From Candidatus Latescibacterota bacterium (GTDB lineage: Bacteria > Latescibacterota > UBA2968 > UBA8231), in NCBI GenBank assembly GCA_965261395.1, contig OZ253462.1:1888001-1952000 (forward strand): DNA of 64,000 nt. The letters are read 5' to 3'. Positions 22,357 to 37,818 of the stretch are shown here, one piece after another. A program made the position numbers and the translations under genes. The stretch's first letter is position 1. Each line of letters opens with the position of its first letter. Below the pieces are notes generated by a model. It made no database searches, was not told where the DNA came from, and worked only from the letters and a program-made list of their open reading frames with translations.

Positions 22357-22866
22357 ATGCCGTATCGTAACAAAGTGTTCATCTCGTTCGATGGGGACAA
22401 TGATATTCATTATTACCGACTGATGTGTGCATGGAAACAGAATGATCGCACAGACTTCAACTTTTTCGACGCGCATGACATCAACACCGCAAGGGACACC
22501 AGCACCGAAGAAACAATCAAGAGGCGACTCAGTGAACGTCTTGCGAATGCGTATGTTGTAGTTTCCCTGATAGGTGAGCACACACGGTATCACTATAAAT
22601 TCGTCCGATGGGAACTAGAGCAGGCGATCACACGTAATTTGCCGATAGTTGGCGTCAACCTTAACGGACGGCGATCCCAAGACACTATGCTTTGTCCACC
22701 CATTATTCGTGATAAGTTGGCAATTCACATTAGTTTCAATGCAGCGATTCTCCAATACGCTCTCGAGGACTGGCCCACCAAACACACAAATTACAAAAGA
22801 AACAACAAAATAGGACCGTACTATTATTCGCAAGAAGTCTACACACGTCTGGGACTACCACCATGA
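22357..22866 (+). CDS. thsB: TIR-domain protein (ThsB/DUF1863-like)
   Basis: KVFISF, VSLIGEHT, FVRWELEQAI catalytic Glu, PIVGVNLNG; lower GC. Confidence 0.8.
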   Translation: MPYRNKVFISFDGDNDIHYYRLMCAWKQNDRTDFNFFDAHDINTARDTSTEETIKRRLSERLANAYVVVSLIGEHTRYHYKFVRWELEQAITRNLPIVGVNLNGRRSQDTMLCPPIIRDKLAIHISFNAAILQYALEDWPTKHTNYKRNNKIGPYYYSQEVYTRLGLPP

Positions 22867-23807
22867 ACCTTATTAAGAGATATGTAACTAAGGGCCACAT
22901 ATCCATAGCTCTATTCCGTCATCTCTCGCGTCTTGCCCTTATCAGATCTCTCCTTGAAGCGTTCGGAGTTTTGTGGCTCATTGTTGAGTCTTCATCATTT
23001 TTCTTTTTATCGTTTGGAGATCTTGTTAAGTCCTACTGGTGGTTATTCCTGCTTGGTGGCGCTGCCCTCGGCGTGTATCGCGCTCTGCCGAAATCCACAG
23101 CATCCTCACGCATTCAGGGCACAGACTCGTTCATTGAGCTGCGTATCACTGATATGTTCAGTGTGCCGGCAGCATTTATAATACCCTGTAATCGAACATT
23201 CGATACGAGTCTCGAGGATCGTATTATTTCCCCAAAAAGTACTCAAGGGCAATTTACACAGCTCTTCTTTGCTAACTCTCGGGATGAATTGGATAAAAAG
23301 ATATGTATGAGCATCGATAGTACCGAAGGGACTACGCTCGACAGAAACAACAAACCATATGGGAAGCAAATCGAATTCCCGATAGGCACTGTCGCGGAAG
23401 TCTCGTCCGGTGAAAAAATCGCTTATCTTGTCGCCATTAGCTCCCTCAACGAGCACAAGAAAGCAATCGCGTCGACAGAGGATATCCTTGATGCTCTACC
23501 CGCGATATGGGAATTTATCCGCACAAGGGGCGAGTTCGTACCCCTCTGCTGTCCAATCCTTGGTTCCAAGTTTAGTCGCGTAAAAGCGACCCGGGAAGAT
23601 TTAACTCGTGAAATCATTAAATCGTTCGTCTCCGCTTGTCGTGCAGGTCACTTCTGCGAGAAACTAACGATTGCAATCGCTCCATCAGACTTTATGACTG
23701 GCAAAATCAACCTTGAAACACTCCGGCGGTTTTTGGAGCATGAATGCTTGTATCCTGTAGCACTATCTTCAGATTTAGCTAGCGCCCCCACCGGAACTCC
23801 AGCATAG
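22863..23807 (+). CDS. thsA: Two-TM + Macro domain effector (Thoeris type II ThsA-like)
   Basis: Two N-terminal hydrophobic helices; IPCNRTFDT, IISPKSTQGQF, FPIGTVA, PILGS; overlaps the TIR gene by 4 nt. Confidence 0.72.
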   Translation: MNLIKRYVTKGHISIALFRHLSRLALIRSLLEAFGVLWLIVESSSFFFLSFGDLVKSYWWLFLLGGAALGVYRALPKSTASSRIQGTDSFIELRITDMFSVPAAFIIPCNRTFDTSLEDRIISPKSTQGQFTQLFFANSRDELDKKICMSIDSTEGTTLDRNNKPYGKQIEFPIGTVAEVSSGEKIAYLVAISSLNEHKKAIASTEDILDALPAIWEFIRTRGEFVPLCCPILGSKFSRVKATREDLTREIIKSFVSACRAGHFCEKLTIAIAPSDFMTGKINLETLRRFLEHECLYPVALSSDLASAPTGTPA

Positions 23808-23835: not shown

Positions 23836-24138
23836 ATGGAAAACACATACTTCGTCCCAGCCGACACCGAGCACGTCGCCCGAGAAAAAAACAAGGCCAA
23901 GGTGCTACGCCGCTCCCAGTGGTGGAAGCGCAAACGGGCCGCCGGCCAATGCCACTACTGCCAGCAGTCGTTTGCGCCCGAAGATCTGACCATGGATCAC
24001 GTGGTGCCACTCATCCGCGGCGGCCGCACCACCAAGTCCAACGTGGTGCCTTGCTGCAAGCACTGCAACAGCCAAAAGCAACACCTGCTTCCCGTCGAAT
24101 GGACGGCCTATTTAGAGCGGCTGCGCGGCGAAGGCTAG
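23836..24138 (+). CDS. HNH endonuclease
   Basis: CHYC, LTMDHVVP, NVVPCCKHCN. Confidence 0.9.
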   Translation: MENTYFVPADTEHVAREKNKAKVLRRSQWWKRKRAAGQCHYCQQSFAPEDLTMDHVVPLIRGGRTTKSNVVPCCKHCNSQKQHLLPVEWTAYLERLRGEG

Positions 24139-25076
24139 TGATAGTCCACAATGTCGGCTATAGCCGCGGCTACTTCCTCGGCCACTTCCGCCGGCACCCG
24201 CGGATTGAACGGGCCGCCCTCGCCGCCATCCACATCGCTGAACCCTCCCAAGTGCATGGCCTCAACCACAGCGGAGTAGTTATACATGCGGCCGTTGCGG
24301 AAGCGAATTTCCTCTAGGGCCGCGAGCTGGTTTTCGATCTGCTGCGACGTGGCAAAATCGCCTCGGCGCTGGGCGTTGTTGATCTCGTCTGAAGCGCGGG
24401 CGAAGGCCACATTGATCCCCGACGTATGCCCTTTAGTGCCGCGCTCAGCCGGCCCAGTCGAACGGTCCCCCACACCCCATATCACCAGCGCAGCTCCCTC
24501 CTGTACGTCGGCGACAATCGGCTCAACGTCCTCGACCGTGGTGCCGATCTTCAGCCCCACGAAGTGCTCTGATTCGTTCATCAGCCGCACGGCTATGTCA
24601 CGCTCGGCTTGGTTGCGCAGGTAGTAGAGCAACTTGGCCCCGCACGAACGCCCCAACCGCTCGGCAAAATCCACGTAGTACGCAAAAATGCCCTCTGGAT
24701 TGGCCACGCCAGTAAGCGGCATAACGAGATAGACACCCGGGGGATATTCGAGCGCGGCCTCCCGCTCGATCAACCGCTCGGCATCCCCAACCGGATTGGG
24801 GGCAATCCCAGACATCAGCACCCCGCGCCCCCCCATCTGCTCGCCGGTAAAGCCCAACAACCGCACTTGCTCGTCCGCGCTAATGTGGTGGATCAAGCTA
24901 GTCCCGGCGATGCCAATCACCCGGGGCCGGTCGCCGTCCAAGTGATTGTTCTCCATTAAGTAGTTGATGTTCTTGGCGTGGGCCTCATAGTCGATTTGCC
25001 CGCCGCGAAAGGGGACCACCGGGATGGAGGTAACCGAGTTTAGCGCGTCGAGTAGGTCTTCTCTTTGCAATGGCAT
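24135..25076 (-). CDS. Divergent DHDPS/NAL family lyase
   Basis: IPVVPF..GQIDY, LLYY, VGLKIG Schiff-base Lys, GHTSG. Confidence 0.7.
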   Translation of the reverse strand: MPLQREDLLDALNSVTSIPVVPFRGGQIDYEAHAKNINYLMENNHLDGDRPRVIGIAGTSLIHHISADEQVRLLGFTGEQMGGRGVLMSGIAPNPVGDAERLIEREAALEYPPGVYLVMPLTGVANPEGIFAYYVDFAERLGRSCGAKLLYYLRNQAERDIAVRLMNESEHFVGLKIGTTVEDVEPIVADVQEGAALVIWGVGDRSTGPAERGTKGHTSGINVAFARASDEINNAQRRGDFATSQQIENQLAALEEIRFRNGRMYNYSAVVEAMHLGGFSDVDGGEGGPFNPRVPAEVAEEVAAAIADIVDYH

Positions 25077-25109
25077 GTTTAACCTCAACTGTGTTAGGTG
25101 GCGATGAAT

Positions 25110-26186
25110 TCAACGCTCGGGTGCGAAGCGGCGCATGTCGCGCCCTGGGGTTCCCTCGGCGATCCAGTGAGCGACGATTTGGCCGGTAATCGGGCCTAAT
25201 AAGACGCCGTTTTTGTAGTGCCCAGAGGCCACGAAAACCCTCGGCGCATCCGTCAGCGGGCCGATGAGCGGACGCCCGCCTCGGGGCTTGGGCCGCAGAC
25301 CAGCCTGCTGGCGCGACAGCGGCAAGCACCTCCCCAGCGCGGAGCGTACCTGCGCGGCGAACTCCGCCGCGGCCGCGCAGGTCGTTTCCAGCCGAAAGCC
25401 GACCTCTTCCAACGTCGATCCCGCGATTGTTTCGCCGCCGTCTGGAATGAGGTAGCGTCCGTTTACCCTCACTAGGTGGCGTAGCGGGGCACCGGCAAAA
25501 CGCGCTTGTTGGCCCCGCACCGGACGCAACGCGACTCGGGCACCGAGCTGCGCGGCCAAACCGGTGGTCCACGCCCCAGCCGCCAAGACCGCAAAGTCGG
25601 CGCGATGGGTTCCGCTAGTGGTGGCGACCTCGACGGTCTCGCCCTCTTGGGCAATGCGCCAGACACGCTCACCCCAAGCGGCAGACGCGCCCCGCTGGGC
25701 GGCAGACGCCCAAAGCGCCGCGCCCAACTTGAGGGGATCCACCCGGTGATCGTCGGCAAAATACAGACCCTCGCAGCCGCCGTCCAACGCTGGCTCCGCA
25801 CCGCGCAAGGCCCGCTCGTCGAGCCGCTCGACCCGACCGCCGCGCGTGCGGTTGAAGCGCCAGACCTCCTCTAGCTGGGATGCGTCGGCAAAAAGCTCGA
25901 TGCCGCCGAGGGGACGCCAGCCCACGTCTGCGTCTATATCTTCTTCTAGATCGCAAGCCAGCCGGGCGTGCAGGGCGTGGCCATCGCGGAAAAGCTGAGC
26001 GTAGGAATTGTCGCCGCCGTTGCAGTGGGTGAGGACGCCCAAAGAGGCCCGGCTCGTGGATGAACCTGCGGCGATCCCCTCGTCGAGCAGGACGACCTTA
26101 GCACCTTGCCGCGCGAGGAAGTAGGCCGTCGAGCGGCCAATGATACCGGCCCCGACGACCAACACGCGCGCGCCCGCAAGGGCCAT
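25110..26186 (-). CDS. Glycine oxidase/D-amino acid oxidase-like FAD oxidoreductase
   Basis: GAGIIG, PVRGQ, GLRP, GHYKNGVLL. Confidence 0.85.
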   Translation of the reverse strand: MALAGARVLVVGAGIIGRSTAYFLARQGAKVVLLDEGIAAGSSTSRASLGVLTHCNGGDNSYAQLFRDGHALHARLACDLEEDIDADVGWRPLGGIELFADASQLEEVWRFNRTRGGRVERLDERALRGAEPALDGGCEGLYFADDHRVDPLKLGAALWASAAQRGASAAWGERVWRIAQEGETVEVATTSGTHRADFAVLAAGAWTTGLAAQLGARVALRPVRGQQARFAGAPLRHLVRVNGRYLIPDGGETIAGSTLEEVGFRLETTCAAAAEFAAQVRSALGRCLPLSRQQAGLRPKPRGGRPLIGPLTDAPRVFVASGHYKNGVLLGPITGQIVAHWIAEGTPGRDMRRFAPER

Positions 26187-27356
26187 CTAACGACCGACGA
26201 TCGGCGGCAGGTTGGTCGTCGGGCAGGCGCGCGGGCCGCTCACCGGATAGCCCATATCCGCGAGGACGCAGTTGATTTGAGCCTCTAGCTTGAGCAGGTA
26301 CTCCTGTTCGGCCGCGCTGCTCGACGCGCGCGCTGGGCCTACGTCAAAGCCGCGGGCCGCCACGCCGGTCTTGAAGCCCTCTGGGAAGTTGACGCCGAGG
26401 AGCATCAAGTTAATGAGGTCGAGGATGCGGTATTGCAGTTCGCGGGCCCGCTTGATGTCGCCGCTTTTGGCCTTTTCATAAAGCTCGACAATCACCTCTG
26501 GGACGATGCCCGAGGTGGCGATGGTGCCTCCGCTAGCGCCCATGAGCACTGAGGGGAACACGATTTCCTCGCAACCGGTCATTACCACGTAGTCGGGGCG
26601 TTGTTGGCGCAGGCGGTGCATAGTGTTGAGCAGCCGTGGCAGGTCGCGGCTGGAGTCCTTGGTGCCGAAGATCCGCTCGTAGGGCAAGAGCCGCTCCATC
26701 AAATCTATCGACAGCTCTTGGGTAAATTGCGGAATATTGTACAGCAGGATGTCCAGCGGCGATTCTTCGGCAATTTCGGCGAAGTACTCGAAGAGGCTCT
26801 CAGTGGAAATCTCATAGTAATAGGGGGGCATTAGCGCAATGGCATCCACGCCGAGCGAGGCGTAGTATTCAGCCATCTTGAGCACGTCGCGCAAATTGGC
26901 CTCGCTGGCTCCGGCCAAGACGGGTATGCGCCCCGCGTTGACCTCGCAGACCAGCCGCACCACGTCTTGGCGCTCCTCCCGCGACAGGCGCGCGAACTCG
27001 CCGGTGCTGCCGTTGGGGTACAGCCCGTGGAGCCCAGCCTCGATCAGCCAGTTGATGTAGCGCTCCATCTCGGCGTGGTTGATCCCGTTCTGGCGGTCGA
27101 AAAGGATGAGATTGGGGCAGAAGATGCCAGCAAATGCCTTGCGACCGTCGGCGCGAGCAACCGCTGGTGCCGATATTGGCGTTGGGGGGGTTTGGCTGCT
27201 GGCTTCTCGACGCACGACCTCAACACCTTGAGCGCGCAAAAAGTCCTGCGCCGAGGGCGTCAGCTTGGCCCCCGGGCCGAGCTCGACCTGCCGTTCGCCA
27301 GCCAGGCGACCCTCCAAGGTCTGAGCGGTAATTACTGCATCGTCAATCCGAATCAT
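26187..27356 (-). CDS. DHDPS/NAL family aldolase with N-terminal extension (candidate BMC signature enzyme)
   Basis: NGSTGE, PPYY, LLYNIP, GTKDSS; ~70 aa N-terminal addition. Confidence 0.85.
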   Translation of the reverse strand: MIRIDDAVITAQTLEGRLAGERQVELGPGAKLTPSAQDFLRAQGVEVVRREASSQTPPTPISAPAVARADGRKAFAGIFCPNLILFDRQNGINHAEMERYINWLIEAGLHGLYPNGSTGEFARLSREERQDVVRLVCEVNAGRIPVLAGASEANLRDVLKMAEYYASLGVDAIALMPPYYYEISTESLFEYFAEIAEESPLDILLYNIPQFTQELSIDLMERLLPYERIFGTKDSSRDLPRLLNTMHRLRQQRPDYVVMTGCEEIVFPSVLMGASGGTIATSGIVPEVIVELYEKAKSGDIKRARELQYRILDLINLMLLGVNFPEGFKTGVAARGFDVGPARASSSAAEQEYLLKLEAQINCVLADMGYPVSGPRACPTTNLPPIVGR

Positions 27357-27370
27357 TTTTCGCGTCCTCG

Positions 27371-28525
27371 CTAAACGTGCGGCAGGCGGCCTTCGAGGCC
27401 GCTGTAGGGCTGCGGAATGGCGTAGGCCGAGACCAGTTCTCCGTGTGCGACGGCCTCCTGCCGGCCCGCCTCTATGGCGACCTGCACGGCACCGACATCG
27501 CCGCGGACGACCGCGGCCGTCAAGTAGTACCCCACCTTATAGGCCCCCTCGTATTCGACGGAAGCGGCTTTGAGCATCCGATCGACGGCCCGCACCAAGG
27601 CCACGGTGCTGCGCGTCTCAATCAGCCCCATAGCCTGCCGCGCACCCGGCCCAAGGCCCTCGGCCGCAGTGGCAAAGCGGGCGACTAGCGCGGAATCGGG
27701 CCGCGAGACTACAGCCGAGGCGTCGAGCTGGCCCAAGGCCGTAGCGGCCTCAGCACCGGCGCGCACGGCGGCCTGCACGTCGTCGAGTTGGCCGGTGGCC
27801 AGCGCGGCAATCCGCCCACCGCTGCCGATGCTCAAGCGCTCGATTTGGACATCCGCGGCCTTGAGCATGGCGTCGGCGCTGCCCACGACCGCGGCGTAAC
27901 CAATGGTCTCTATGAGGCCCAAGGCACCAGTGGCGCGCGGTGTGACCGGTGGCGCGGGCGGCAGCAGAGGGCCTAGTCCTTCGCTGGGCTGGGGCAAAAC
28001 AAGGGTCGCGTACACGGTGCCAAGCCGCTCGGCTGCTTGCCGGCCAGCTTCTAGCGCTGTCTGCACGGCCGCCACATCGCCAAAGACCGGTGCGTGACAC
28101 AGGGCACCACCGATGAAGGCCCAACCCCCTAGCTCCACTTGGGCGGCCTTGAGCATGGCGTCGGTGCCAGCCACTAGCGGCGTCAGGCCCTGCGTCTCCA
28201 ACAGGCCAAGCGCTCGCGGCTGTACCGGTTCGGCACCGAGGCCGGTTGCGTGGGGCATGGCGTCCATGGCGCGCGCATCCGGCCTCGGCACCACTCGCGC
28301 GCCAATCAATTCGCCGGTGCGGTTCGCCTCGACCTCGCCGACGCGAATGGCCGCCTCCACGTCAGCCACTTGGCCGGCAATTACTACGGTGAGCCAACCC
28401 GAGCCAATGCCGTGCCGACCACAGAGGCGTACCTCAGCGGCCTTGAGCATGGCGTCGGTGGAAGCCATTAGCGACGCCATGCCGCGCGTCTCCAGCATGC
28501 CGATCGCTCCGCTAGACACCGCCAC
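27371..28525 (-). CDS. BMC shell protein with four tandem BMC domains
   Basis: Four domain starts: AIGMLETRG, ALGLLETQG, ALGLIETIG, AMGLIETRS, each with D.MLKAA and ending (P/S)xP; start may be GTG at 28519. Confidence 0.88.
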   Translation of the reverse strand: MAVSSGAIGMLETRGMASLMASTDAMLKAAEVRLCGRHGIGSGWLTVVIAGQVADVEAAIRVGEVEANRTGELIGARVVPRPDARAMDAMPHATGLGAEPVQPRALGLLETQGLTPLVAGTDAMLKAAQVELGGWAFIGGALCHAPVFGDVAAVQTALEAGRQAAERLGTVYATLVLPQPSEGLGPLLPPAPPVTPRATGALGLIETIGYAAVVGSADAMLKAADVQIERLSIGSGGRIAALATGQLDDVQAAVRAGAEAATALGQLDASAVVSRPDSALVARFATAAEGLGPGARQAMGLIETRSTVALVRAVDRMLKAASVEYEGAYKVGYYLTAAVVRGDVGAVQVAIEAGRQEAVAHGELVSAYAIPQPYSGLEGRLPHV

Positions 28526-29096
28526 CTCCCATCGGCACGGCGTATGCGGCCAAAACCTCGGGTCGCGGCTGCGGAATCAGTGCCGTGCCCAGCAAGTGCT
28601 CGCAGCCCGCGAGCAGCTTTTGCGCGACGGCTATGGCTTCGGTTACGGCCCCTACGTCCCCCAAGACCAGCGAACACACCACGCGGTCGTGGACCGTCAG
28701 CACGTTGATTACTTCGACGGCAGCCGTCTTGACCATCTGATCGTTGGTGTGAATGTGAGCTCCGTAGCCGCGCGTCTCAACCAACCCCAAGGCACCGGCG
28801 GGAAAATCGCTGCGGGTGCTGATTGGAAAATTGACGAAATGGAAGCAGGCAGCGGCGGGCTGGTTTAGAGGGACGGCCACCACGTGTTCTACCACGCCGC
28901 GGGCCGCTTCTTCGCCGCTTTGCAGCGCGGCGGCCACATCGCTGATCGACCCGGTAAAAAAGGCCGTGGTATAACCGCCAATTGACGACCAGCCTGCGAG
29001 CTGCACGTCCGCAGCCTTGCAGGCCGCATCTGCACCCACAATGGCGGCGGCCACGCCCTGCACCTCGATCATGCCGACTGCTGGGGACCCGGCCAT
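28512..29096 (-). CDS. Tandem two-domain BMC shell protein (divergent)
   Basis: AVGMIEVQG...DAACKAA and ALGLVETRG...DQMVKTA...GDVGAV. Confidence 0.85.
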   Translation of the reverse strand: MAGSPAVGMIEVQGVAAAIVGADAACKAADVQLAGWSSIGGYTTAFFTGSISDVAAALQSGEEAARGVVEHVVAVPLNQPAAACFHFVNFPISTRSDFPAGALGLVETRGYGAHIHTNDQMVKTAAVEVINVLTVHDRVVCSLVLGDVGAVTEAIAVAQKLLAGCEHLLGTALIPQPRPEVLAAYAVPMGGGGV

Positions 29097-29099
29097 AGC

Positions 29100-29549
29100 T
29101 CAGTCTGCCAGCCGGTGAATTACTAGCTCGGTGATCTGCTCAACTAAGGCTTCCGGGTCGGTGGCTTGGCCCTGCTCGATTTGTTGCAGAAGCGTCTTGT
29201 AGCGGTTGCAGCCCTCGCAGCTCGCCTCGGGGTCGCCCGCCTTCTTGCGCTGGTGGACGGCGCAATCGCCGCAGCGCGACGGCTCGACGTACCCCGAGCC
29301 AAACTCCTCGTGCTGGCAGCCGCAGGCGCGGTCGGGATGCTCGCACCGGCCCGCGTCCGCAACGCCGTCGGCGGCTGCCGCAACGGCCGCGCCGCGACTT
29401 AGCTGCAACCGGTGCTGGCGGATGTAATCCCAAGCCGTCGGCGTCAAGATGGCGCTGGGGGCCACCTTGAGTGCCCGCTCGCCCTTGTGCTCGCGCCCGA
29501 GCAAATCGCCGGTGACGACTGGGGCGTCGATGTGCAAAGCCTCGGCCAC
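29100..29549 (-). CDS. BMC-associated Cys-rich hypothetical protein with C-terminal encapsulation-peptide-like helix
   Basis: AILTPTAWDYIR N-domain; 7 Cys including CGDC and CEGC; DPEALVEQITELVIHRL. Confidence 0.75.
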   Translation of the reverse strand: MAEALHIDAPVVTGDLLGREHKGERALKVAPSAILTPTAWDYIRQHRLQLSRGAAVAAAADGVADAGRCEHPDRACGCQHEEFGSGYVEPSRCGDCAVHQRKKAGDPEASCEGCNRYKTLLQQIEQGQATDPEALVEQITELVIHRLAD

Positions 29550-29553
29550 TTAG

Positions 29554-29817
29554 CTAACCAATGTGGTCTGTCAGCCCCTCAGTCGGGCGGGGAATCACGT
29601 GGACGCTGCGCAGCTCGCCGATGCGCTGGGCGGCTTGCGCTCCTGCATCTACCGCCGCTTTGACAGCCGCTACGTCGCCTTCGACTAGAACGGTAATTAG
29701 GCCACTGCCCACGCGCTTTTGGCCCGCATAGCTCACGTCGGCGGTTTTCAACATGGCGTCGAGGGCTTCGACGACGCAGACCAAACCACGGGTCTCAACC
29801 ATACCCAATGCTTTCAT
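29554..29817 (-). CDS. BMC-H hexameric shell protein (EutM/PduA-like)
   Basis: [32 protein letters not shown]. Confidence 0.95.
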
Positions 29818-29833
29818 TATTTGTCTCCTCTAC

Positions 29834-30394
29834 CTACAAGTACAACGCGACGAGATCGTCGTGGGGGCGGGGAATCACGTGCTGCGACACGAGCTCGCCC
29901 ACGCGCTCGGCCGCCTCGGCACCAACGCTGACCGAAGCCTGCACCGAGCCGACGTCGCCACTGACCATGACGGTAATGTACCCGCCGCCGATGTCCTGGA
30001 GCTTGACGACCTCCACATCGGCGGCCTTGCTCATGGCGTCGGCTGCTTCGATTACGCCGATGGCCCCCTTCGTCTCAATGAGGCCCAAGGCGCGGACGCG
30101 ACCATCGCTGTCGTCGCTGTCGCTGCGCTCGGGCACGACGGCCGTCAACTCGCTGTGCGGGCGGGGAATCACGTGCACCGAATGCACCTCCCCAACCTTG
30201 GCCGCCGCGGCCGAGCCGGCATCCACAGCCGACTTGACGGCCGCCACATCGCCCGAGCAAAACACTGTCACCAAGCCGGAGCCGACCCTGTCCCAGCCCA
30301 AAAGCTGTACGCTGGCGGCCTTGGCCATGGCGTCGCCGGCCTCGACGATCCCGACCAGCCCCACCGTTTCTACCATGCCTATTGCATCCGACAT
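29834..30394 (-). CDS. Tandem two-domain BMC shell protein (two PduA-like domains)
   Basis: AIGMVETVG...VIPRP and ALGLIETKG...VIPRP. Confidence 0.92.
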   Translation of the reverse strand: MSDAIGMVETVGLVGIVEAGDAMAKAASVQLLGWDRVGSGLVTVFCSGDVAAVKSAVDAGSAAAAKVGEVHSVHVIPRPHSELTAVVPERSDSDDSDGRVRALGLIETKGAIGVIEAADAMSKAADVEVVKLQDIGGGYITVMVSGDVGSVQASVSVGAEAAERVGELVSQHVIPRPHDDLVALYL

Positions 30395-30431: not shown

Positions 30432-31112
30432 TCAACGCTCCAAATATACCTTGCGGGCATGTACCAAATCAATCGCATTGCCCTCGTCTGTGTCGATGTG
30501 AACCTCTAGGCGCTCGCGCTCGCTGACTCGACAGATCAGCCCTTCCAGCACCCCACCCTGATCGCCTTCTACTACCAGCCGCAGCAAGTCCCCCGGGCCG
30601 ACCCCGTAGTACGCAGCCTCGGCCGGGTTTAGATGAACGTGGCGGGCGGCCCGGATCACTCCGTGCGCAAGCTCCAGCCCTCCGGCCGGCCCCACCAAGT
30701 AGCAGCCCGGCGTCTCCTCGATGTTGCCACTGAGCCGCACCGGCGCGTCAATGCCCAAAAAGCGGGCGTCCGTAAAGGCCAGCTCCACTTGGTTGTAATC
30801 GCGCAATGGGCCGAGGATGCGGACATTGGGAATCACCTGCTTGCGCGGGCCGAAAACCGACACCGTCTGCTCGGCGGCGAAAGCACCCCCCTGGTACAAG
30901 GTCTTCTGCACGGTCAGCTCGGCACCCGCGCCGAAGAGCGCGTCCATTGCCTCTTGGTTGAGGTGGACGTGGCGGGCGGACATATTGACGACCAGCCTCG
31001 GGGCTGGAGGTGCCTGCTCTAGCTGAGCGTCGGGCAGGTGATCGTACACCACCCGGCGCACCAGCGCCTCAATCTGCTTGCGGTCCAATCCAGCCGCTGG
31101 TGCAACGTCCAT
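30432..31112 (-). CDS. pduL: Phosphate acyltransferase PduL with N-terminal encapsulation peptide
   Basis: SARHVHL, VRILGP, RHVHL, VHIDTDEGNA; IEALVRRVV helix. Confidence 0.93.
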   Translation of the reverse strand: MDVAPAAGLDRKQIEALVRRVVYDHLPDAQLEQAPPAPRLVVNMSARHVHLNQEAMDALFGAGAELTVQKTLYQGGAFAAEQTVSVFGPRKQVIPNVRILGPLRDYNQVELAFTDARFLGIDAPVRLSGNIEETPGCYLVGPAGGLELAHGVIRAARHVHLNPAEAAYYGVGPGDLLRLVVEGDQGGVLEGLICRVSERERLEVHIDTDEGNAIDLVHARKVYLER

Positions 31113-31115
31113 CGC

Positions 31116-31430
31116 CTATCCTTCGCGGCTCAGTTGCCGACAGTCGAAGTCTTTGCCCATAGCCTGTAGCGAATCGACGATCCCGACGATTACCGCGTCG
31201 GCTGGCACATCGCCCAAGTCCGGGGCGATCCGCGACGAGCTGCCCTGCACCAAAATCACCAACTCGCCCTTGCCCGCTTGCACCGCATCGATGCAGACCA
31301 TATCCCGCCCCGTCAGCACCAGACCATGCTCGCGCACCGACGCGATTTCAACGACTAAGAGCTTCTTGCCGTTGAGGCTCGGAACCTTGGCCGTGGAAAC
31401 CAAATGCCCTTTGACTTGGCCTAAGAGCAT
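31116..31430 (-). CDS. BMC-P vertex pentamer EutN/CcmL
   Basis: G.LVST.K...L.G.KLL, DAVQAGKGE.V, GSSSR, DAVIVGIVD. Confidence 0.93.
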   Translation of the reverse strand: MLLGQVKGHLVSTAKVPSLNGKKLLVVEIASVREHGLVLTGRDMVCIDAVQAGKGELVILVQGSSSRIAPDLGDVPADAVIVGIVDSLQAMGKDFDCRQLSREG

Positions 31431-32842
31431 CAGGTGATGCGGAAGTAGTCGACGAGGGCACAGCGGCGCTGGCGGGTAAAAGTCCGCGGTGAAGTCAGGC
31501 CCTCGCCCGTAGGCCCAGCGATGGAGTACGTCCCAAAGCCCTCGCCGCCCAAGCCAACCCCAGCGTAGGAGGGGCCGTTCTTGACGAAAATAGTGGTATC
31601 TACGGCGCGGGCCATGTTGTGCATGTTTTCGATGTTGCGCGAATGGATCACGGCCGTGTGCCCATAGCCGTGCTCGGAGATGACGGCCTCGCGGATGGCT
31701 TGGTCGATGTTGGGAACCCGCACGATCGGCAGAAAGGGCATCATCTGCTCCTCGCGCACAAAAATGTGGTTGGCATCGGTCTCGCCAATGAGCATGCGCA
31801 GCGACGAGTCGAGCCGGAGGCCGATGCGCTCGCCCAGCACGGCAGCGTCGCGCCCCACCAACTCGCGGTTGGCCGCGAGATGCCCGTCTGGCCCTTCGAC
31901 AAAGGCCACCTGCGCGAGGGCCTCAATCTGCCGTGCGTCGAGCTCATATGCATTGTATTGGACCATCAGCCGCTTGAGCTCGTCGGCAATGGAGGCGACG
32001 GCAAAGACCTGCTTCTCGCCGATGCAGAGAATGTTGTTATCGAAGCCCCCCCCGTCGATGATGTCGCGCGCGGCCTTGGCTAAATCGGCGGTTTCATCGA
32101 CGACCGCGGGCGGATTACCTGGTCCGGCGACGATGGCCTTTTTGGGGCTACCCAGCGCGGCCTTGGCCACGCCCGGCCCGCCTGTGACCAGCAGCAGGCG
32201 GACGCCTGGGTGGTTGAACAATTCGTTGGCCGTCTCAATGGTCGGCGTTTCGACCGCGGTCACCAAGTTGGCCGGCCCGCCGGCTGCGACGATGGCTTGA
32301 TTGATCAAGTCCACCGCGAACATGGAGACCTTGCGGCCCGCCGGATGTACGTTGAAGACGACCGAGTTACCCGCGGCGATAATGCAAATGGCGTTGTTGA
32401 CCATCGTCGGCACGGGATGCGTCGATGGAGTGACCGCGCCGATGACCCCGTAGGGGGCCATTTCGACTACGGTCAGCCCGTGATCGCCGGTCCACGAAGT
32501 GGCCTCTAGGTCTTCGACGCCGGGCGTGGTGTCGGCCGCGACTTGGTGCTTGAGGATCTTGTCTTCCAACCGCCCCATGCCCGTCTCGGCCAAGGCCCGC
32601 CGCGAAAACTCCTCGGCGTGGACGTGCACCGTCTGCCGGAGGGCCTCGACGATCTTTTTGCGCTCCTCCAGCGACAGGGCCACCAACTGCTGCTGGGCGC
32701 GGGTCGCGCCTTGGACGGCCGCGTCGATCGTCGCGAAGACGCCGGTGTTCCCGCTCTCGCTGCCGTTCCCGCCGCTGACGACGCGCTGCACCACTTCTTC
32801 GACTATCTTGCGTACGTGTTCTTCGCTGACGTTTTGAGGCAC
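31430..32842 (-). CDS. CoA-acylating aldehyde dehydrogenase (EutE/PduP-like) with encapsulation peptide
   Basis: VRKIVEEVV helix, TGDHGLT, AGPGNPP, FDNNILCIGEK, TGEGLTS. Confidence 0.93.
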   Translation of the reverse strand: MPQNVSEEHVRKIVEEVVQRVVSGGNGSESGNTGVFATIDAAVQGATRAQQQLVALSLEERKKIVEALRQTVHVHAEEFSRRALAETGMGRLEDKILKHQVAADTTPGVEDLEATSWTGDHGLTVVEMAPYGVIGAVTPSTHPVPTMVNNAICIIAAGNSVVFNVHPAGRKVSMFAVDLINQAIVAAGGPANLVTAVETPTIETANELFNHPGVRLLLVTGGPGVAKAALGSPKKAIVAGPGNPPAVVDETADLAKAARDIIDGGGFDNNILCIGEKQVFAVASIADELKRLMVQYNAYELDARQIEALAQVAFVEGPDGHLAANRELVGRDAAVLGERIGLRLDSSLRMLIGETDANHIFVREEQMMPFLPIVRVPNIDQAIREAVISEHGYGHTAVIHSRNIENMHNMARAVDTTIFVKNGPSYAGVGLGGEGFGTYSIAGPTGEGLTSPRTFTRQRRCALVDYFRIT

Positions 32843-32979
32843 GCTCTTTTCCTCGGGTTGTGTTTAATATTTAGCATGGGGAAAATAGGCGGCCCCACCC
32901 CAAGCGTCAAGGTTATTTGACGGGCTGCCAGCCCTGCCTTAAGGTTTGTGCAAGTGCTGGAAAAACAAAGGAGAAAGAC

Positions 32980-33783
32980 ATGCGCATCATCCGCTTTATC
33001 GACGCTGAAGACGCCGTCCGTTGGGGCCTCGAAGCCGAGGAGGGCCAAGCCTCCGTCCTCACCGGCGATCTATTCGCAGAACTAGTGCCCACGGACGAAC
33101 AGGTAGCCGTCAAAAGGCGGCTCGCCCCGCTCGCCCCGACCAACATTTTCTGCATTGGGCTAAACTATCGAGAACACGCGGCCGAATCCGGCCTCGAGCC
33201 GCCCGAGCAGCCCGTAGTCTTTGCCAAGCCCACGAGCGCGGTCTGCGGCCCGGGCGACCCGATCCTGCTGCCAGCCTGCTGTCGCCGCGGCCCGGAAGTT
33301 GACTACGAGTGCGAGCTCGCAGTGGTGATCGGCAAAGCCGCCCGCAACGTCTCCCGCGCCGACGCCCTCAGCCACGTGCTCGGATACACGTGCGCCAACG
33401 ACGTCTCGGCCCGCAAGTGGCAGCTCAACGGCGGCGGCGGCCAGTGGATCCGCGGCAAGGGCTTTGACACCTTCTGCCCTTTGGGGCCGGTGCTGGTCAC
33501 TGCCGACGAAATCCCCGACCCGCAAACCCTCGGCATCCGCACGATCCTCAACGGCGCGACCATGCAGGACCACACCACCGGCGACATGATCTTCCCGGTC
33601 GCCGAACTGATCGAATTTCTCAGCGAAGATACGACCTTGCTGCCGGGCACGGTCATTCTCACCGGTACCCCGCAGGGCGTGGGCTTTGCGCGCAAGCCGC
33701 CCGTGTGGCTCGCAGCCGGCGACGAGGTAATCGTGGAAATAGACCAGATCGGCCGGCTGCAAAATCCAGTGGAGGCAGCCTAG
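32980..33783 (+). CDS. Fumarylacetoacetate hydrolase family protein
   Basis: CIGLNY, DYECEL, NDVSAR, GKGFDTFCP, ILTGTP. Confidence 0.92.
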   Translation: MRIIRFIDAEDAVRWGLEAEEGQASVLTGDLFAELVPTDEQVAVKRRLAPLAPTNIFCIGLNYREHAAESGLEPPEQPVVFAKPTSAVCGPGDPILLPACCRRGPEVDYECELAVVIGKAARNVSRADALSHVLGYTCANDVSARKWQLNGGGGQWIRGKGFDTFCPLGPVLVTADEIPDPQTLGIRTILNGATMQDHTTGDMIFPVAELIEFLSEDTTLLPGTVILTGTPQGVGFARKPPVWLAAGDEVIVEIDQIGRLQNPVEAA

Positions 33784-35172: not shown

Positions 35173-37818
35173 ATGGCTAGCGCGAAATCGTTGCAGCGGC
35201 TCTGCCGCCAAACCTTGCCGCTGATGTTGCAGGCGGCGAATGGACGAGAAATGATGGGGGCGGTGCGGGAAGTGGTCGCTACCGATCGCTGGAATTCGTT
35301 TGACCGCTTTCACGAGACGACCGCGACGCTGGTGCGGCGGTACGAGGCCGCCGGGGCGCGCGCCGAGGTCGAAGCGATTCAGACGGGAGGGCGGATCGGC
35401 TCTGGGCGGTGGATCATCCAGGAGGCGGCCGATGTCCAAGGAGCAACCGTCGATGTGGTGCATCCAGTCGCGGAGCGGGTACTGGATTGGCAGGTCAACC
35501 CCTGGCACCTCATCCAATGGAGCGCAGCGACGCCACCGGGCGGCTTGCGGCTGCGGCTATTTATCCTCGACCACGTTGAGGAAATCGAGCGGCAGCCGGC
35601 CGACGGACTCGCCGGAGCGCTCGTGCTGACGAAACTAGACCCGCGCACTCACCTCAAGCTGCTCGCCGATAAGGGCGCTGCTGCGGTCATCTCCGACCAA
35701 CAGGTTCCCAACCTGCCCGATGCAGTCGCCTGGACCAAGTTCGGGTGGGGCGCGATCCCCCCGCAGCAGGGAACGGCGCGCCTAGTGGGCTTTGCGATCT
35801 CTGCCAGACAAGGAGCACAGCTCAGACGGCTGGCACAGCAGCATGGAGTGCTGACGGTACAGGTGGTGGCCGATGTCCGCAAATACGTGGGCAGCCACGA
35901 TGTGGTTAGCGGAATCATCGCCGGAGCCGACGACCCCCAAGACGAAGTTTGGGTCATTGCCCATAGCGCCGAGCCGGGGGCCGTAGATAACGCGTCGGGC
36001 GTAGCTGTGACCTTGGAAATCGCCCGAATAATCGAAGGGCTTATCCAAGCCGGCGAGATCGAGCGACCGAAGCGCACCATCCGCCTGCTCAACGCGTACG
36101 AGTGTTACGGGTTTTTTGCTTACCTAGAGCGGACGCGGAGATTGCAGACGCCGTTGGCCGGTGCTTGTATCGACACGGTCGGATCCCGGCCCGAAGTCTG
36201 CGACGGCCGCTTGGAGTGGCACGGGACGATCCCAATGTCGGCCAGTTTCGTCGATCGCGTCGGCGCGGCGATCCTGCGCGCCGGAGTGCGGCAGCACCAA
36301 CCCGGCTACCGCGTATATCCGGCGCACTTTATGTCCACTTCCGACACCCTGATCGGCGACCCGCAATACGGATTCCCCTGTCCCTGGCTGACGACGCACC
36401 ACCAAAAGAGCGGGCGCGGCTTTGATGCCTATCACTCTTCGGCCGACGTGGAAAAATTGCTCAGTCCCAAGGGCCTGGAGACCTGCGCCGCCGCTATGGC
36501 GGCCTATGTGTACTACTTGGCCGACATCGGTAGTGCGGAGGTGGGGGAACTGGTCCGCACCGAAAACGAGTACTTTCTCGGGGTGCTAAAACGCCAAAAA
36601 GGCTCCCGCGTTGAAGCCGAGTACACCCGCGACGCGCACAGCCGCAGTATGCAGCGACTGACGCGCTGGCTCTGGGGCGGTGGGCGCAGCGAGGTCATGG
36701 GAGCAATCGCCGAGGGCAAGCGACAAATTGCGGCAGCCTCCGAGGACATATCACCGACAAAGCGCCCGCGCCGACCTGCCGAGGCGCGGCTGGTACCCCA
36801 GCGCACGGCGGTGCTCTCGCCGACGGCGGAGAACGCGCCGGAGGCCATAAGCAAGCGCATCGCCGCCACGCAGCTTACCCCTTGGGCGCTGTTTTGGGCC
36901 GATGGCCGCCGCAGCTTGGGCGAAATCGCCGAGCGCATCGCCTGCGAGGAGGCCGACTCCGGCGCAGGACCGCGGCAGCAAGCAAAAGAGCCTATCGCCA
37001 TAGACCGGGTCCACGCCTACTTTGCGGCCCACGCCGAATTGGGTTACGCCCAGTTGATCGACCCAGCCAATATGATCGGCCGCAAGGAACTGGTGAGGGA
37101 TTTGCGTCGCTTGGGCGTCGCCCCGGGCATGGACCTGATGGTACACAGTTCCCTCTCGGCCATCGGCTTTGTGGAGGGCGGTGCCGAGACCGTCGTCGAT
37201 GCGCTCTTGCAAGCCGTCGGCAAGCGCGGAACCCTACTGGCCCCCTCGTTCAATCACCGCGTGGCGACTGTCTTCAACCGGCTGGCCACTCCCACCACTA
37301 ACGGCGCGATCCCGGACGCGCTATGGCGGCGCGCCGAGGCCGAGCGCAGCGCGCATCCTACCCATGCGGTAGCGGCGATCGGGCCGCAGGCCAGACACTA
37401 CTGCCGTGGCCATCTCGAAGCCGGCATCTGGGCCGCGGATAGCCCGATCGGCAAATTGGTACACGGCGGCGGCTATATCCTCGCGCTGGGTACGACGCAC
37501 GACACCAGCACGGCCTACCACATAGCCGAGATGTCCGTGCCCTGCGGCTGCATCGAGTCCTTTGCTCTCCCGGACCGGATCGTGCGCCAAAACGGAGCTG
37601 TGGAGGAGGTCTTGGGGCTAGCCTTTCGCAGCGGCCACTGCCCAGTCCCAACCCACAAGCTGGACTCAACACTCGACCGGAGGAAGTTGCAGCGGCGGGG
37701 TAAGGTGGGGCAGGCCGAATGCGAATTAGTAAAGGCCCACGACCTGTGGCAGGTGCGGCGCGAACACTTGCGGCGCGTCTGTCCCACCTGCACCGTCAAA
37801 CCCCAAGCCGCGCGGTGA
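35173..37818 (+). CDS. M28/DUF4910-like metallopeptidase fused to AAC(3)/YokD family N-acetyltransferase
   Basis: AH..PGAVDNASG, YHSSAD; C-terminal LMVHSSLS, HPTHAVAAIG, STAYHIAE. Confidence 0.8.
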   Translation: MASAKSLQRLCRQTLPLMLQAANGREMMGAVREVVATDRWNSFDRFHETTATLVRRYEAAGARAEVEAIQTGGRIGSGRWIIQEAADVQGATVDVVHPVAERVLDWQVNPWHLIQWSAATPPGGLRLRLFILDHVEEIERQPADGLAGALVLTKLDPRTHLKLLADKGAAAVISDQQVPNLPDAVAWTKFGWGAIPPQQGTARLVGFAISARQGAQLRRLAQQHGVLTVQVVADVRKYVGSHDVVSGIIAGADDPQDEVWVIAHSAEPGAVDNASGVAVTLEIARIIEGLIQAGEIERPKRTIRLLNAYECYGFFAYLERTRRLQTPLAGACIDTVGSRPEVCDGRLEWHGTIPMSASFVDRVGAAILRAGVRQHQPGYRVYPAHFMSTSDTLIGDPQYGFPCPWLTTHHQKSGRGFDAYHSSADVEKLLSPKGLETCAAAMAAYVYYLADIGSAEVGELVRTENEYFLGVLKRQKGSRVEAEYTRDAHSRSMQRLTRWLWGGGRSEVMGAIAEGKRQIAAASEDISPTKRPRRPAEARLVPQRTAVLSPTAENAPEAISKRIAATQLTPWALFWADGRRSLGEIAERIACEEADSGAGPRQQAKEPIAIDRVHAYFAAHAELGYAQLIDPANMIGRKELVRDLRRLGVAPGMDLMVHSSLSAIGFVEGGAETVVDALLQAVGKRGTLLAPSFNHRVATVFNRLATPTTNGAIPDALWRRAEAERSAHPTHAVAAIGPQARHYCRGHLEAGIWAADSPIGKLVHGGGYILALGTTHDTSTAYHIAEMSVPCGCIESFALPDRIVRQNGAVEEVLGLAFRSGHCPVPTHKLDSTLDRRKLQRRGKVGQAECELVKAHDLWQVRREHLRRVCPTCTVKPQAAR

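What the first reader, a model, noticed from the sequence alone, without database searches (positions are those of the whole stretch)
27371..29096. A 4-domain and a 2-domain BMC shell gene that together make one six-domain tile, one base from a single-chain hexamer
Seen: 27371-28525 encodes four consecutive BMC domains, and the overlapping upstream gene encodes two. Established: shell tiles are six-domain rings, built as 6x1 (BMC-H) or 3x2 (BMC-T), and four does not divide six. Inference: either a 2+4 heterodimer forms an asymmetric tile, or three tetra-domain chains form a double ring. Deleting one G from ATGGGAG (plus-strand CCC 28528-28530) fuses the genes (…AYAVPMEVAVSSGAIGM…). The resulting 19-aa linker compares with 20-22 aa at the other inter-domain junctions. 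The window has other single-base indels, so a true six-domain polypeptide is possible. A GGAGG before the second gene's GTG (28519) supports separate translation. The six pore-loop regions differ (GIGSG, FIGGA, SIGSG, KVGYY, SIGGY, TVHDR), implying an asymmetric pore.
Basis: partly seen in the sequence, partly recalled or inferred. Interest (0 to 1): 0.92.

Follow-up and report, generated by a model that had tools for sequence, protein, structure and literature searches.

The report
Two-plus-four-domain microcompartment shell tile
Two always-adjacent genes encode a two-domain and a four-domain microcompartment shell protein that most likely pair into one six-sided tile whose six domains all differ, a way of building shell tiles that the papers I could search do not describe.

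Summary
The minus-strand gene 27371-28519 (ORF open to 28525) has four PF00936 (BMC) domains, and the overlapping upstream gene 28512-29096 has two.

The split is real, not a one-base error. No indel appears in contigs of four independent runs. In 50 of 50 genome loci read by script the two-domain gene ends in a stop just before the four-domain gene, with at least four different junction designs. None of 83 genomes carrying the gene shows a fused frame. The single-chain hexamer reading is refuted.

The two genes co-occur in 83 of 83 genomes with the four-domain gene and are adjacent in 82. Each of the six domain positions forms its own conserved clade, with invariant position-specific pore loops and the edge lysine kept in all six.

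A complex prediction closes the ring D1-D2-D3-D4-D5-D6: score 0.84, best control 0.00. It may rest on likeness to solved BMC rings.

Best reading: a 1:1 heterodimeric pseudohexamer with an asymmetric pore, tied to a DHDPS-family aldolase gene downstream in 48 of 50 loci. I found no description in the searchable literature. It is a new variant of a known kind.

The parts
27371..28519 (-). Four-domain BMC shell gene (BMC4). It is 382 aa from the conserved GTG at 28519; the ORF is open to a second GTG at 28525, giving the 384-aa numbering used here.
   Evidence: Pfam PF00936 x4, E 1.9e-78. AF2 model pLDDT 91.6, pTM 0.90. The family runs to 55-98% identity with lengths mostly 369-396 aa. Start choice.
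28512..29096 (-). Two-domain BMC shell gene (BMC2), 194 aa, the partner.
   Evidence: Pfam PF00936 x2, E 2e-32. The family runs to 55-94% identity over 146-209 aa among the best 120 hits. It lies directly upstream of BMC4 in 50 of 50 loci.
28512..28529 (-). Coupling junction: GGAGG (28529-28525), GTG start of BMC4 (28519-28517), and an 8-nt overlap with the BMC2 TAG stop (28514-28512).
   Evidence: Sequence. The same design is found in L001-L007. Contigs of 3 runs bridge it without gaps.
28848..29081 (-). Domain D1 (BMC2 residues 6-83), pore loop SIGGY.
   Evidence: W36, G40, G41 and T43 invariant; edge lysine K27 invariant.
28545..28793 (-). Domain D2 (BMC2 residues 102-184), pore loop TVHDR.
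   Evidence: R138 and C141 invariant; H136 at 90% or more; edge lysine K123 invariant.
28274..28507 (-). Domain D3 (BMC4 residues 7-84), pore loop GIGSGW.
   Evidence: G41 invariant; H38, S42, G43 and W44 at 90% or more; K28 invariant. It touches D2 in the complex model.
27974..28216 (-). Domain D4 (BMC4 residues 104-184), pore loop FIGGA.
   Evidence: G134, W135, G139 and L142 invariant; K126 invariant.
27686..27925 (-). Domain D5 (BMC4 residues 201-280), pore loop SIGSGGR.
   Evidence: G236, G237 and R238 invariant; K222 invariant.
27389..27637 (-). Domain D6 (BMC4 residues 297-379), pore loop KVGYY.
   Evidence: K330 and Y333 invariant; K319 at 90% or more. It touches D1 in the complex model.
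26187..27356 (-). DHDPS/NAL-family class I aldolase-like enzyme, 389 aa, with a ~75-aa N-terminal extension. It is the likely encapsulated signature enzyme.
   Evidence: PF00701 E 1.3e-57 over residues 75-361. NCBIfam hits all fall below their cut-offs. It lies directly downstream of BMC4 in 48 of 50 loci.
29100..29549 (-). 149-aa Cys-rich protein of no family. Its N-terminal ~48 aa resemble the N-terminal extension of the DHDPS enzyme.
   Evidence: No Pfam family at E 0.01. BLASTP against the DHDPS N-terminus gives 35% identity over 48 aa, E 5e-09. Weak TIGR02536 hit, E 0.0025. It lies upstream of BMC2 in 39 of 50 loci.
29554..30394 (-). Ordinary BMC-H (29554-29817, 87 aa) and ordinary two-domain BMC-T (29834-30394, 186 aa).
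30432..32842 (-). Metabolosome core: PduL phosphotransacylase (30432-31112), BMC-P (31116-31430) and acylating aldehyde dehydrogenase (31430-32842).
   Evidence: PF06130, PF03319 and PF00171. NCBIfam PRK15398 at 655 bits against a cut-off of 403.
24135..26186 (-). Downstream operon genes: an FAD oxidoreductase of the DAO family (25110-26186) and a second, weak DHDPS-like protein (24135-25088).
   Evidence: Conserved in order in L001, L003, L005, L006 and L007.

Best explanation
BMC2 (domains D1-D2) and BMC4 (domains D3-D6) are two translationally coupled shell proteins. They most likely assemble 1:1 into one hexagonal shell tile, a heterodimeric pseudohexamer in which all six PF00936 domains are different. 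The tile keeps the edge lysine on all six sides, so it can sit in a facet among ordinary BMC-H and BMC-T tiles. Its centre is lined by six different, individually invariant loops (His/Asp/Arg, Tyr/Tyr, Trp, Arg and Gly-rich). This gives a single pore or binding site with no rotational symmetry.

I infer that it acts as a specialised gate, or a docking point, serving the DHDPS-family aldolase encoded next to it. That enzyme would make an aldehyde that the BMC aldehyde dehydrogenase and PduL then process.

Shown: the domain counts, that the split is real, the strict co-occurrence and adjacency, and the position-specific conservation. Predicted only: the ring. Inferred: the function of the pore.
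For: Domain counts of 4 and 2 come from Pfam, with a period of 96-97 aa as in the BMC-T of the same locus.

The split is real. No letters are left out or put in across 4 runs, and contigs of X2, X15 and X17 bridge the junction without gaps. In 50 of 50 genome loci, and in 10 of 10 loci from the contig scan, BMC2 ends in a stop. The junctions differ: an overlap of 5-14 nt in another frame, a gap of 8-26 nt in the third frame, an in-frame stop (L008, L135), and a 190-nt gap (L136).

Co-occurrence is strict. BMC4 was found in 83 of 168 genomes of the phylum and BMC2 in 84. All 83 genomes with BMC4 have BMC2. The one extra genome has a BMC2 match that stops at residue 160 in a 163-aa open frame, in an 85%-complete assembly of about 980 contigs. 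Adjacency on one strand holds in 82 of 83: 50 by script and 32 of the other 33 by coordinates. In G160 the two matches lie on different contigs.

Each of D1-D6 is a separate clade (25 rows each, SH-aLRT 95-100), so the six positions diverged before the family spread. Pore-loop residues and the edge lysine are invariant or at least 90% conserved in all six domains, while mean column identity is 61% and 69%.

The complex model supports binding but does not show it. The score was 0.84, 0.83 and 0.84 in three runs, and the best of 3 controls scored 0.00. That mark was reached by 58 of 80 solved complexes and 2 of 110 mismatched pairs. The runs agree in at least 91% of contacts, and the partner's pLDDT is at least 89. 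In the model D3 touches D2 and the BMC2 tail, and D6 touches D1. D5 does not touch BMC2 at all, and D4 does so only at G139. That pattern is ring closure.

The AF2 model of BMC4 alone has pLDDT 91.6 and pTM 0.90. Neighbouring domains superpose on chains of 6NER, a synthetic H. ochraceum BMC shell, with target TM-scores of 0.87-0.90.
Against: There is no experiment. The complex model belongs to a family with many solved hexamers and trimers, so the pass may reflect likeness to those rings rather than this particular pairing. My own alignments were used, so the calibration counts hold only roughly.

I did not fold the competing assemblies: a BMC2 homotrimer, three BMC4 chains, or BMC4 with the 186-aa BMC-T or with BMC-H. 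The model's preference among them is therefore unknown.

Adjacency and co-occurrence show joint function, not physical pairing. The genomes are close kin, so the counts overstate independence. The deep order of the six domains is unresolved (supports 13-87). The gate or docking function is inference from synteny only.
Confidence: 0.7

Rival explanations
1. The two proteins assemble separately. BMC2 forms an ordinary BMC-T-like homotrimer. BMC4 forms something else, for example three chains making two rings (stacked, or side by side so as to tie neighbouring tiles together).
For: Two-domain BMC proteins are known to form trimers (passages of PMC8217296 and PMC8007038). Four does not divide six. 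I ran no model of the homomeric forms.
Against: BMC4 is never found without BMC2 (83 of 83 genomes) and the genes are coupled. D1 and D2 are the most diverged domains, with the longest stems in the tree. Each of the six positions is separately conserved. The heterodimer model closes a ring with a score of 0.84 against 0.00 for controls.
Confidence: 0.15
2. BMC4 completes its ring with another partner: the ordinary 186-aa BMC-T of the locus, or two BMC-H monomers. BMC2 has a different role.
For: The locus also encodes a BMC-T and a BMC-H. I did not fold these pairings.
Against: In the more distant loci (L009) the module is BMC2-BMC4-DHDPS, with no BMC-T or BMC-H gene among the ten ORFs scanned within about 6 kb. 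BMC2 is the constant neighbour.
Confidence: 0.08
3. The split is a sequencing or assembly error, or a recent frameshift, in a single six-domain gene.
For: The frames differ by one base at a G run, and the break falls where a linker would be.
Against: No indel appears in 4 runs. The genome is one 6.55-Mb contig. The split is kept in 50 of 50 loci with several junction designs, including in-frame stops. No fused frame occurs in 83 genomes. Among the best 150 representatives only P0285 (569 aa) exceeds 450 aa, and it has 2 PF00936 stretches.
Confidence: 0.01

Closest known systems
BMC-T (standard tandem, BMC-Ts) shell proteins such as PduT
   Same: Tandem, non-permuted PF00936 domains in one chain. 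They form a pseudohexameric tile of six domains. BMC2 has exactly this two-domain layout, and the domain period of ~97 aa equals that of the BMC-T in this locus.
   Different: BMC-T is a homotrimer with threefold symmetry and two kinds of domain. Here the chains carry 4 and 2 domains and are predicted to pair 1:1, giving six kinds of domain and no symmetry. Foldseek aligns PduT poorly to the model (target TM-score 0.42-0.43).
Synthetic tandem-domain BMC-H of Haliangium ochraceum (PDB 6NER)
   Same: It is the best structural match. Two neighbouring domains of BMC4 superpose on its chains with target TM-scores of 0.87-0.90 and 42-43% identity.
   Different: It is engineered, has two domains and forms homotrimers. 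I link 6NER to the 'synthetic tandem-domain' paper from recall; I saw that title only in search listings.
CcmK3/CcmK4 heterohexamers of beta-carboxysomes
   Same: A tile made of more than one gene product, encoded by adjacent genes, and thought to tune permeability. This is recalled; the catalog passage mentions separate regulation of CcmK3/K4.
   Different: Those are single-domain chains mixing in variable ratio. Here the composition and order of all six positions are fixed by covalent linkage.
FRAG-type BMC loci of the 2021 catalog (PMC8217296)
   Same: Shell genes are scattered over the genome, there is a BMC-P triplet at a satellite site, the type occurs in Gemmatimonadetes, and an AldDh lies nearby without a named signature enzyme (passages; genome inventory).
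   Different: The main-text passages I read list only six shell protein types and mention no chain with more than two PF00936 domains. The supplements, which may list these proteins, were closed. I did not test assignment to a FRAG subtype.

Membership tests
BMC shell proteins (PF00936) | PF00936 domain above Pfam's gathering score | tested here: met
   258.9 bits (BMC4) and 111.4 bits (BMC2) against a cut-off of 24.5.
BMC shell proteins (PF00936) | BMC alpha/beta fold, with neighbouring domains placed as in a hexameric ring | tested here: met
   By prediction only. AF2 gives pLDDT 91.6 and pTM 0.90. Foldseek gives target TM-scores of 0.87-0.90 to 6NER tandem chains and 0.82-0.96 to single BMC-H chains.
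BMC shell proteins (PF00936) | Encoded with BMC-P and core metabolosome enzymes | tested here: met
   BMC-P, PduL and AldDh lie in the same operon.
BMC shell proteins (PF00936) | Conserved edge lysine (the D-A-M-x-K-A-A motif) for tile-to-tile contacts. Its role is recalled from the literature. | tested here: met
   K27, K123, K28, K126 and K222 are invariant and K319 is at 90% or more.
BMC shell proteins (PF00936) | Incorporation into a closed shell | not testable with these tools
   Needs expression and imaging.
BMC-T (tandem trimer) | Exactly two PF00936 domains per chain | tested here: not met
   BMC4 has four. BMC2 alone does meet it.
BMC-T (tandem trimer) | Homotrimeric assembly | not tested
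BMC-H (hexamer) | One PF00936 domain per chain | tested here: not met
Heterodimeric 2+4 pseudohexamer (proposed here) | Both genes always present together and adjacent | tested here: met
   83 of 83 genomes co-occur and 82 of 83 are adjacent.
Heterodimeric 2+4 pseudohexamer (proposed here) | The two chains close one six-domain ring | tested here: inconclusive
   The model passes (0.84 against 0.00) with contacts D2-D3 and D6-D1. It is a prediction in a family with solved rings, and the rival assemblies were not modelled.
Single-chain six-domain tile | One open frame through all six domains | tested here: not met
   A stop ends BMC2 in 50 of 50 loci, and no fused frame occurs in 83 genomes.

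The most novel reading that the evidence does not exclude
Higher-order tandem shell proteins would be a further class of microcompartment building block: heteromeric pseudohexamers in which covalent linkage fixes the identity and order of all six positions. That would give one fully asymmetric pore or docking site per tile. The class would include 2+4 in this phylum and possibly 3+3 elsewhere. Here the tile would be the dedicated gate or anchor for a DHDPS-family aldolase, whose N-terminal domain is shared with the neighbouring Cys-rich protein.
Probability: 0.35. Interest if true: 0.85.

Novelty: new variant of a known kind. Interest (0 to 1): 0.68.

Why it matters
Shell tiles are described as homo-oligomers of one-domain or two-domain chains, so every pore has six-fold or three-fold symmetry.

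A natural tile with six fixed, different positions would show that evolution can break that symmetry completely. A pore or docking site could then be shaped for one asymmetric molecule, or for one copy of a cargo protein.

It would also give engineers a natural template for tiles that can be modified at one defined position.

The pair is common in its phylum (83 of 168 genomes). It is tied to an enzyme that may name the function of an uncharacterised microcompartment type.

Tried and rejected
- **Other loci of the contig scan.** Of the 68 loci beyond L001-L011, I read 13 (L012-L021 except the unread ones, plus L018, L027, L069, L074). All were runs of separate one- or two-domain genes, not four-domain chains.
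- **Origin of the six domains.** I considered a triplicated BMC-T and a duplicated three-domain unit. Single-sequence identities (18-45%) and the domain tree (deep supports 13-87) do not decide between them.
- **Metagenome scan with the three-domain protein P0260.** It found only distant relatives: 9 loci, 40-52% identity in eight and a 29-residue piece at 69% in the ninth. The 3+3 idea could not be followed.
- **Long open frames.** Frames of 791, 604 and 590 aa around BMC4 in G150, G053 and G050 looked like fusions. They are chance extensions in a frame different from BMC2's.
- **RNA-library contigs.** X15 and X17 cover both genes. Contigs cannot show transcription or a single transcript, so I make no expression claim.
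- **Not done.** I did not fold a read-through of the in-frame stop of L008 or L135 as one chain.
- **N-terminal extension.** Pfam at E up to 10 found nothing in the DHDPS N-terminal extension.

Full report
**What is there**

On the minus strand the window carries a metabolosome operon:
- acylating aldehyde dehydrogenase, 31430-32842 (NCBIfam PRK15398, 655 bits against a cut-off of 403)
- BMC-P, 31116-31430
- PduL, 30432-31112
- an ordinary two-domain BMC-T, 29834-30394
- a BMC-H, 29554-29817
- a 149-aa Cys-rich protein, 29100-29549
- the two-domain gene BMC2, 28512-29096
- the four-domain gene BMC4, 27371-28519/28525
- a DHDPS-family enzyme with a ~75-aa N-terminal extension, 26187-27356
- a DAO-family flavoenzyme and a second, weak DHDPS-like protein

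Pfam counts four PF00936 stretches in BMC4 (E 1.9e-78) and two in BMC2 (E 2e-32). Domains recur every 96-97 residues, as in the BMC-T of the locus. The break between the genes falls where a linker would be.

The conserved start of BMC4 is the GTG at 28519, not the one at 28525. The latter is missing in L001, L004 and L006, and most database relatives are 382 aa. The overlap is therefore 8 nt, with GGAGG 5 nt upstream.

**Is the split real?**

Yes.
- The window's genome is a single 6.55-Mb contig.
- Contigs of four independent runs laid on 27300-29200 show no letters left out or put in. Records of X2, X15 and X17 bridge the junction without gaps. The X1 record ends 29 letters past 28530, which is marginal.
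- In 10 of 10 orthologous loci from the contig scan, and in 50 of 50 loci taken from 50 genomes of the phylum (the two sets may share genomes), BMC2 ends in a stop directly before BMC4 on the same strand.
- The junction design differs between lineages. Closer relatives have an overlap of 5-14 nt in another frame. More distant ones have a gap of 8-26 nt in the third frame. L008 and L135 have an in-frame stop, and L136 has a 190-nt spacer.
- Three long open frames around BMC4 (791, 604 and 590 aa) are chance extensions in a frame that is not BMC2's.
- No BMC2 row has an open frame above 404 aa. None of the 83 genomes has a fused gene.
- Among the best 150 representatives of 1.84 billion proteins, the only chain over 450 aa (P0285) has two PF00936 stretches.

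The one-base-from-a-single-chain reading is refuted.

**Do the two belong together?**

BMC4 was found in 83 of 168 genomes of the phylum: 64 of 75 in the window's own family (not counting G000), 16 of 22 and 2 of 31 in two others, and none elsewhere. BMC2 was found in 84.

Every genome with BMC4 has BMC2. The one extra genome has a BMC2 match that stops at residue 160 in a 163-aa open frame, in an 85%-complete assembly of about 980 contigs.

The genes are adjacent in 82 of 83 genomes: 50 by script and 32 of the remaining 33 by comparing coordinates. In G160 the two matches lie on different contigs of a 690-contig assembly. These genomes are kin, so the counts are not independent events. The different junction designs do show that the arrangement has been kept through change.

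**Six distinct positions**

I cut 25 family members into domains (the window plus every fifth of 117 in each family) and built a tree of 153 rows. Each of D1 to D6 is one clade (SH-aLRT 95-100). The order among them is unresolved, with supports of 13-87.

In alignments of 93 and 94 sequences (mean column identity 61% and 69%) the pore-loop residues are invariant or nearly so, and they are specific to each position:

| Domain | Conserved pore-loop residues |
|---|---|
| D1 | W36, G40, G41, T43 |
| D2 | H136, R138, C141 |
| D3 | H38, G41, S42, G43, W44 |
| D4 | G134, W135, G139, L142, H144 |
| D5 | G236, G237, R238 |
| D6 | K330, Y333 |

The lysine of the D-A-M-x-K-A-A motif is kept in all six domains. 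I recall, but did not test, that this lysine makes the tile-to-tile contacts in solved shells.

**Structure predictions**

BMC4 alone folds with pLDDT 91.6 and pTM 0.90 as four BMC folds. The best Foldseek matches are chains of 6NER, a synthetic H. ochraceum BMC shell. Two neighbouring domains superpose on them with target TM-scores of 0.87-0.90.

The complex job, using my alignments A1 and A2, gave the verdict that the model supports binding but does not show it.
- The score was 0.84, 0.83 and 0.84 in three runs. The best of 3 controls scored 0.00.
- That mark was reached by 58 of 80 solved complexes and 2 of 110 mismatched pairs.
- The runs agree in at least 91% of contacts, and the partner's pLDDT is at least 89.
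- BMC4 residues 8-95 (D3) touch BMC2 residues 110-143 and 188-193 (D2 and the tail). BMC4 residues 305-362 (D6) touch BMC2 residues 7-87 (D1).
- D5 makes no contact with BMC2, and D4 does so only at G139. This is the pattern of a closed ring D1-D2-D3-D4-D5-D6.

BMC hexamers and trimers are solved, so the pass may come from likeness. I did not fold the rival assemblies.

**Function**

The DHDPS-family gene follows BMC4 in 48 of 50 loci. The Cys-rich gene precedes BMC2 in 39 of 50 (47 hits, of which 8 are to the DHDPS N-terminus). In the distant locus L009 the module BMC2-BMC4-DHDPS stands apart from any other BMC gene within about 6 kb.

The N-terminal ~48 residues of the DHDPS enzyme and of the Cys-rich protein are alike: 35% identity, E 5e-09. 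They weakly match TIGR02536, an ethanolamine-utilisation protein family, at E 0.0025, below its cut-off.

I infer that the aldolase-like enzyme is the encapsulated signature enzyme, and that the asymmetric tile is its gate or anchor. Nothing here tests this.

**Comparison with the literature**

Full-text searches for chains with three, four, six or multiple BMC domains found nothing relevant. I read passages, not whole texts, of:
- the 2021 catalog, PMC8217296
- the 2014 taxonomy, PMC4207490
- MCPdb, PMC8007038
- the Latescibacteria paper, PMC4454575

The three BMC surveys describe only one- and two-domain shell chains; the Latescibacteria passages say nothing about domain number.

The catalog describes FRAG loci in Gemmatimonadetes with a BMC-P triplet. 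That matches this genome, which has a triplet at about 5.005 Mb and two satellite BMC-H genes. Supplements were closed and may list these proteins.

Public records name the relatives only as 'BMC domain-containing protein', CcmO, EutM or CcmL/EutN, from MAGs labelled Gemmatimonadota or Latescibacterota.

**Verdict**

This is a real, conserved, coupled 2+4 gene pair and most likely a heterodimeric pseudohexamer (confidence 0.7). It is a new variant of a known kind. The single-chain idea is refuted, and the 3x4 idea is untested.

Noticed in passing
P0250, P0254, P0257, P0260, P0266, P0262 (no window coordinates): Chains with three PF00936 domains (286-330 aa) exist in other lineages; 6 of the 10 proteins I scanned have three stretches. 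P0256 (not scanned against Pfam; it aligns to P0260 over 283 aa) and P0260 are 39% identical. They share the same longest-contig sizes (520993; members on a contig of 5151). That hints at a 3+3 pair encoded together. Named members are MAGs labelled Dehalococcoidia and Elusimicrobiota.
   Followed up: partly
window 27147-27356 (-) and 29400-29549 (-): The N-terminal ~48 aa of the DHDPS-family enzyme and of the 149-aa Cys-rich protein are homologous (35% identity, E 5e-09). They weakly resemble the C-terminus of TIGR02536 ethanolamine-utilisation proteins. This may be a shared targeting or docking domain.
   Followed up: partly
G000:C1 about 5004963-5005758, 4242952-4243179 and 6519307-6519534: Satellite shell genes in the window's genome: three BMC-P genes in tandem and two lone BMC-H genes. 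This is the FRAG-like pattern of the 2021 catalog.
   Followed up: partly
window 22357-23807 (+): A Thoeris-like pair just beside the operon: a ThsB TIR-like protein (PF08937, E 7e-19) followed by a protein with a ThsA Macro domain (PF20016, E 2e-45).
   Followed up: no
window 35173-37818 (+): An 881-aa protein joining an M28 peptidase/DUF4910 region to an aminoglycoside 3-N-acetyltransferase-family domain (PF02522, E 4.5e-43).
   Followed up: no
L004 1629-5986; also L098 and L107: In L004 about 4.3 kb separates the Cys-rich gene from BMC2, where the window has 3 nt. In L098 and L107 the Cys-rich gene is not found upstream within the locus. This may be an insertion.
   Followed up: no
G097 contigs C118 and C304: One genome holds two BMC2-BMC4 pairs of different identity to the window (BMC2 48% and 78%). 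This may be two strains in one bin, or a duplication.
   Followed up: no
window 32917-33783 (+): A fumarylacetoacetate-hydrolase-family gene is divergently placed next to the AldDh and conserved in L003, L005, L006 and L007. It may bear on the pathway's substrate.
   Followed up: no
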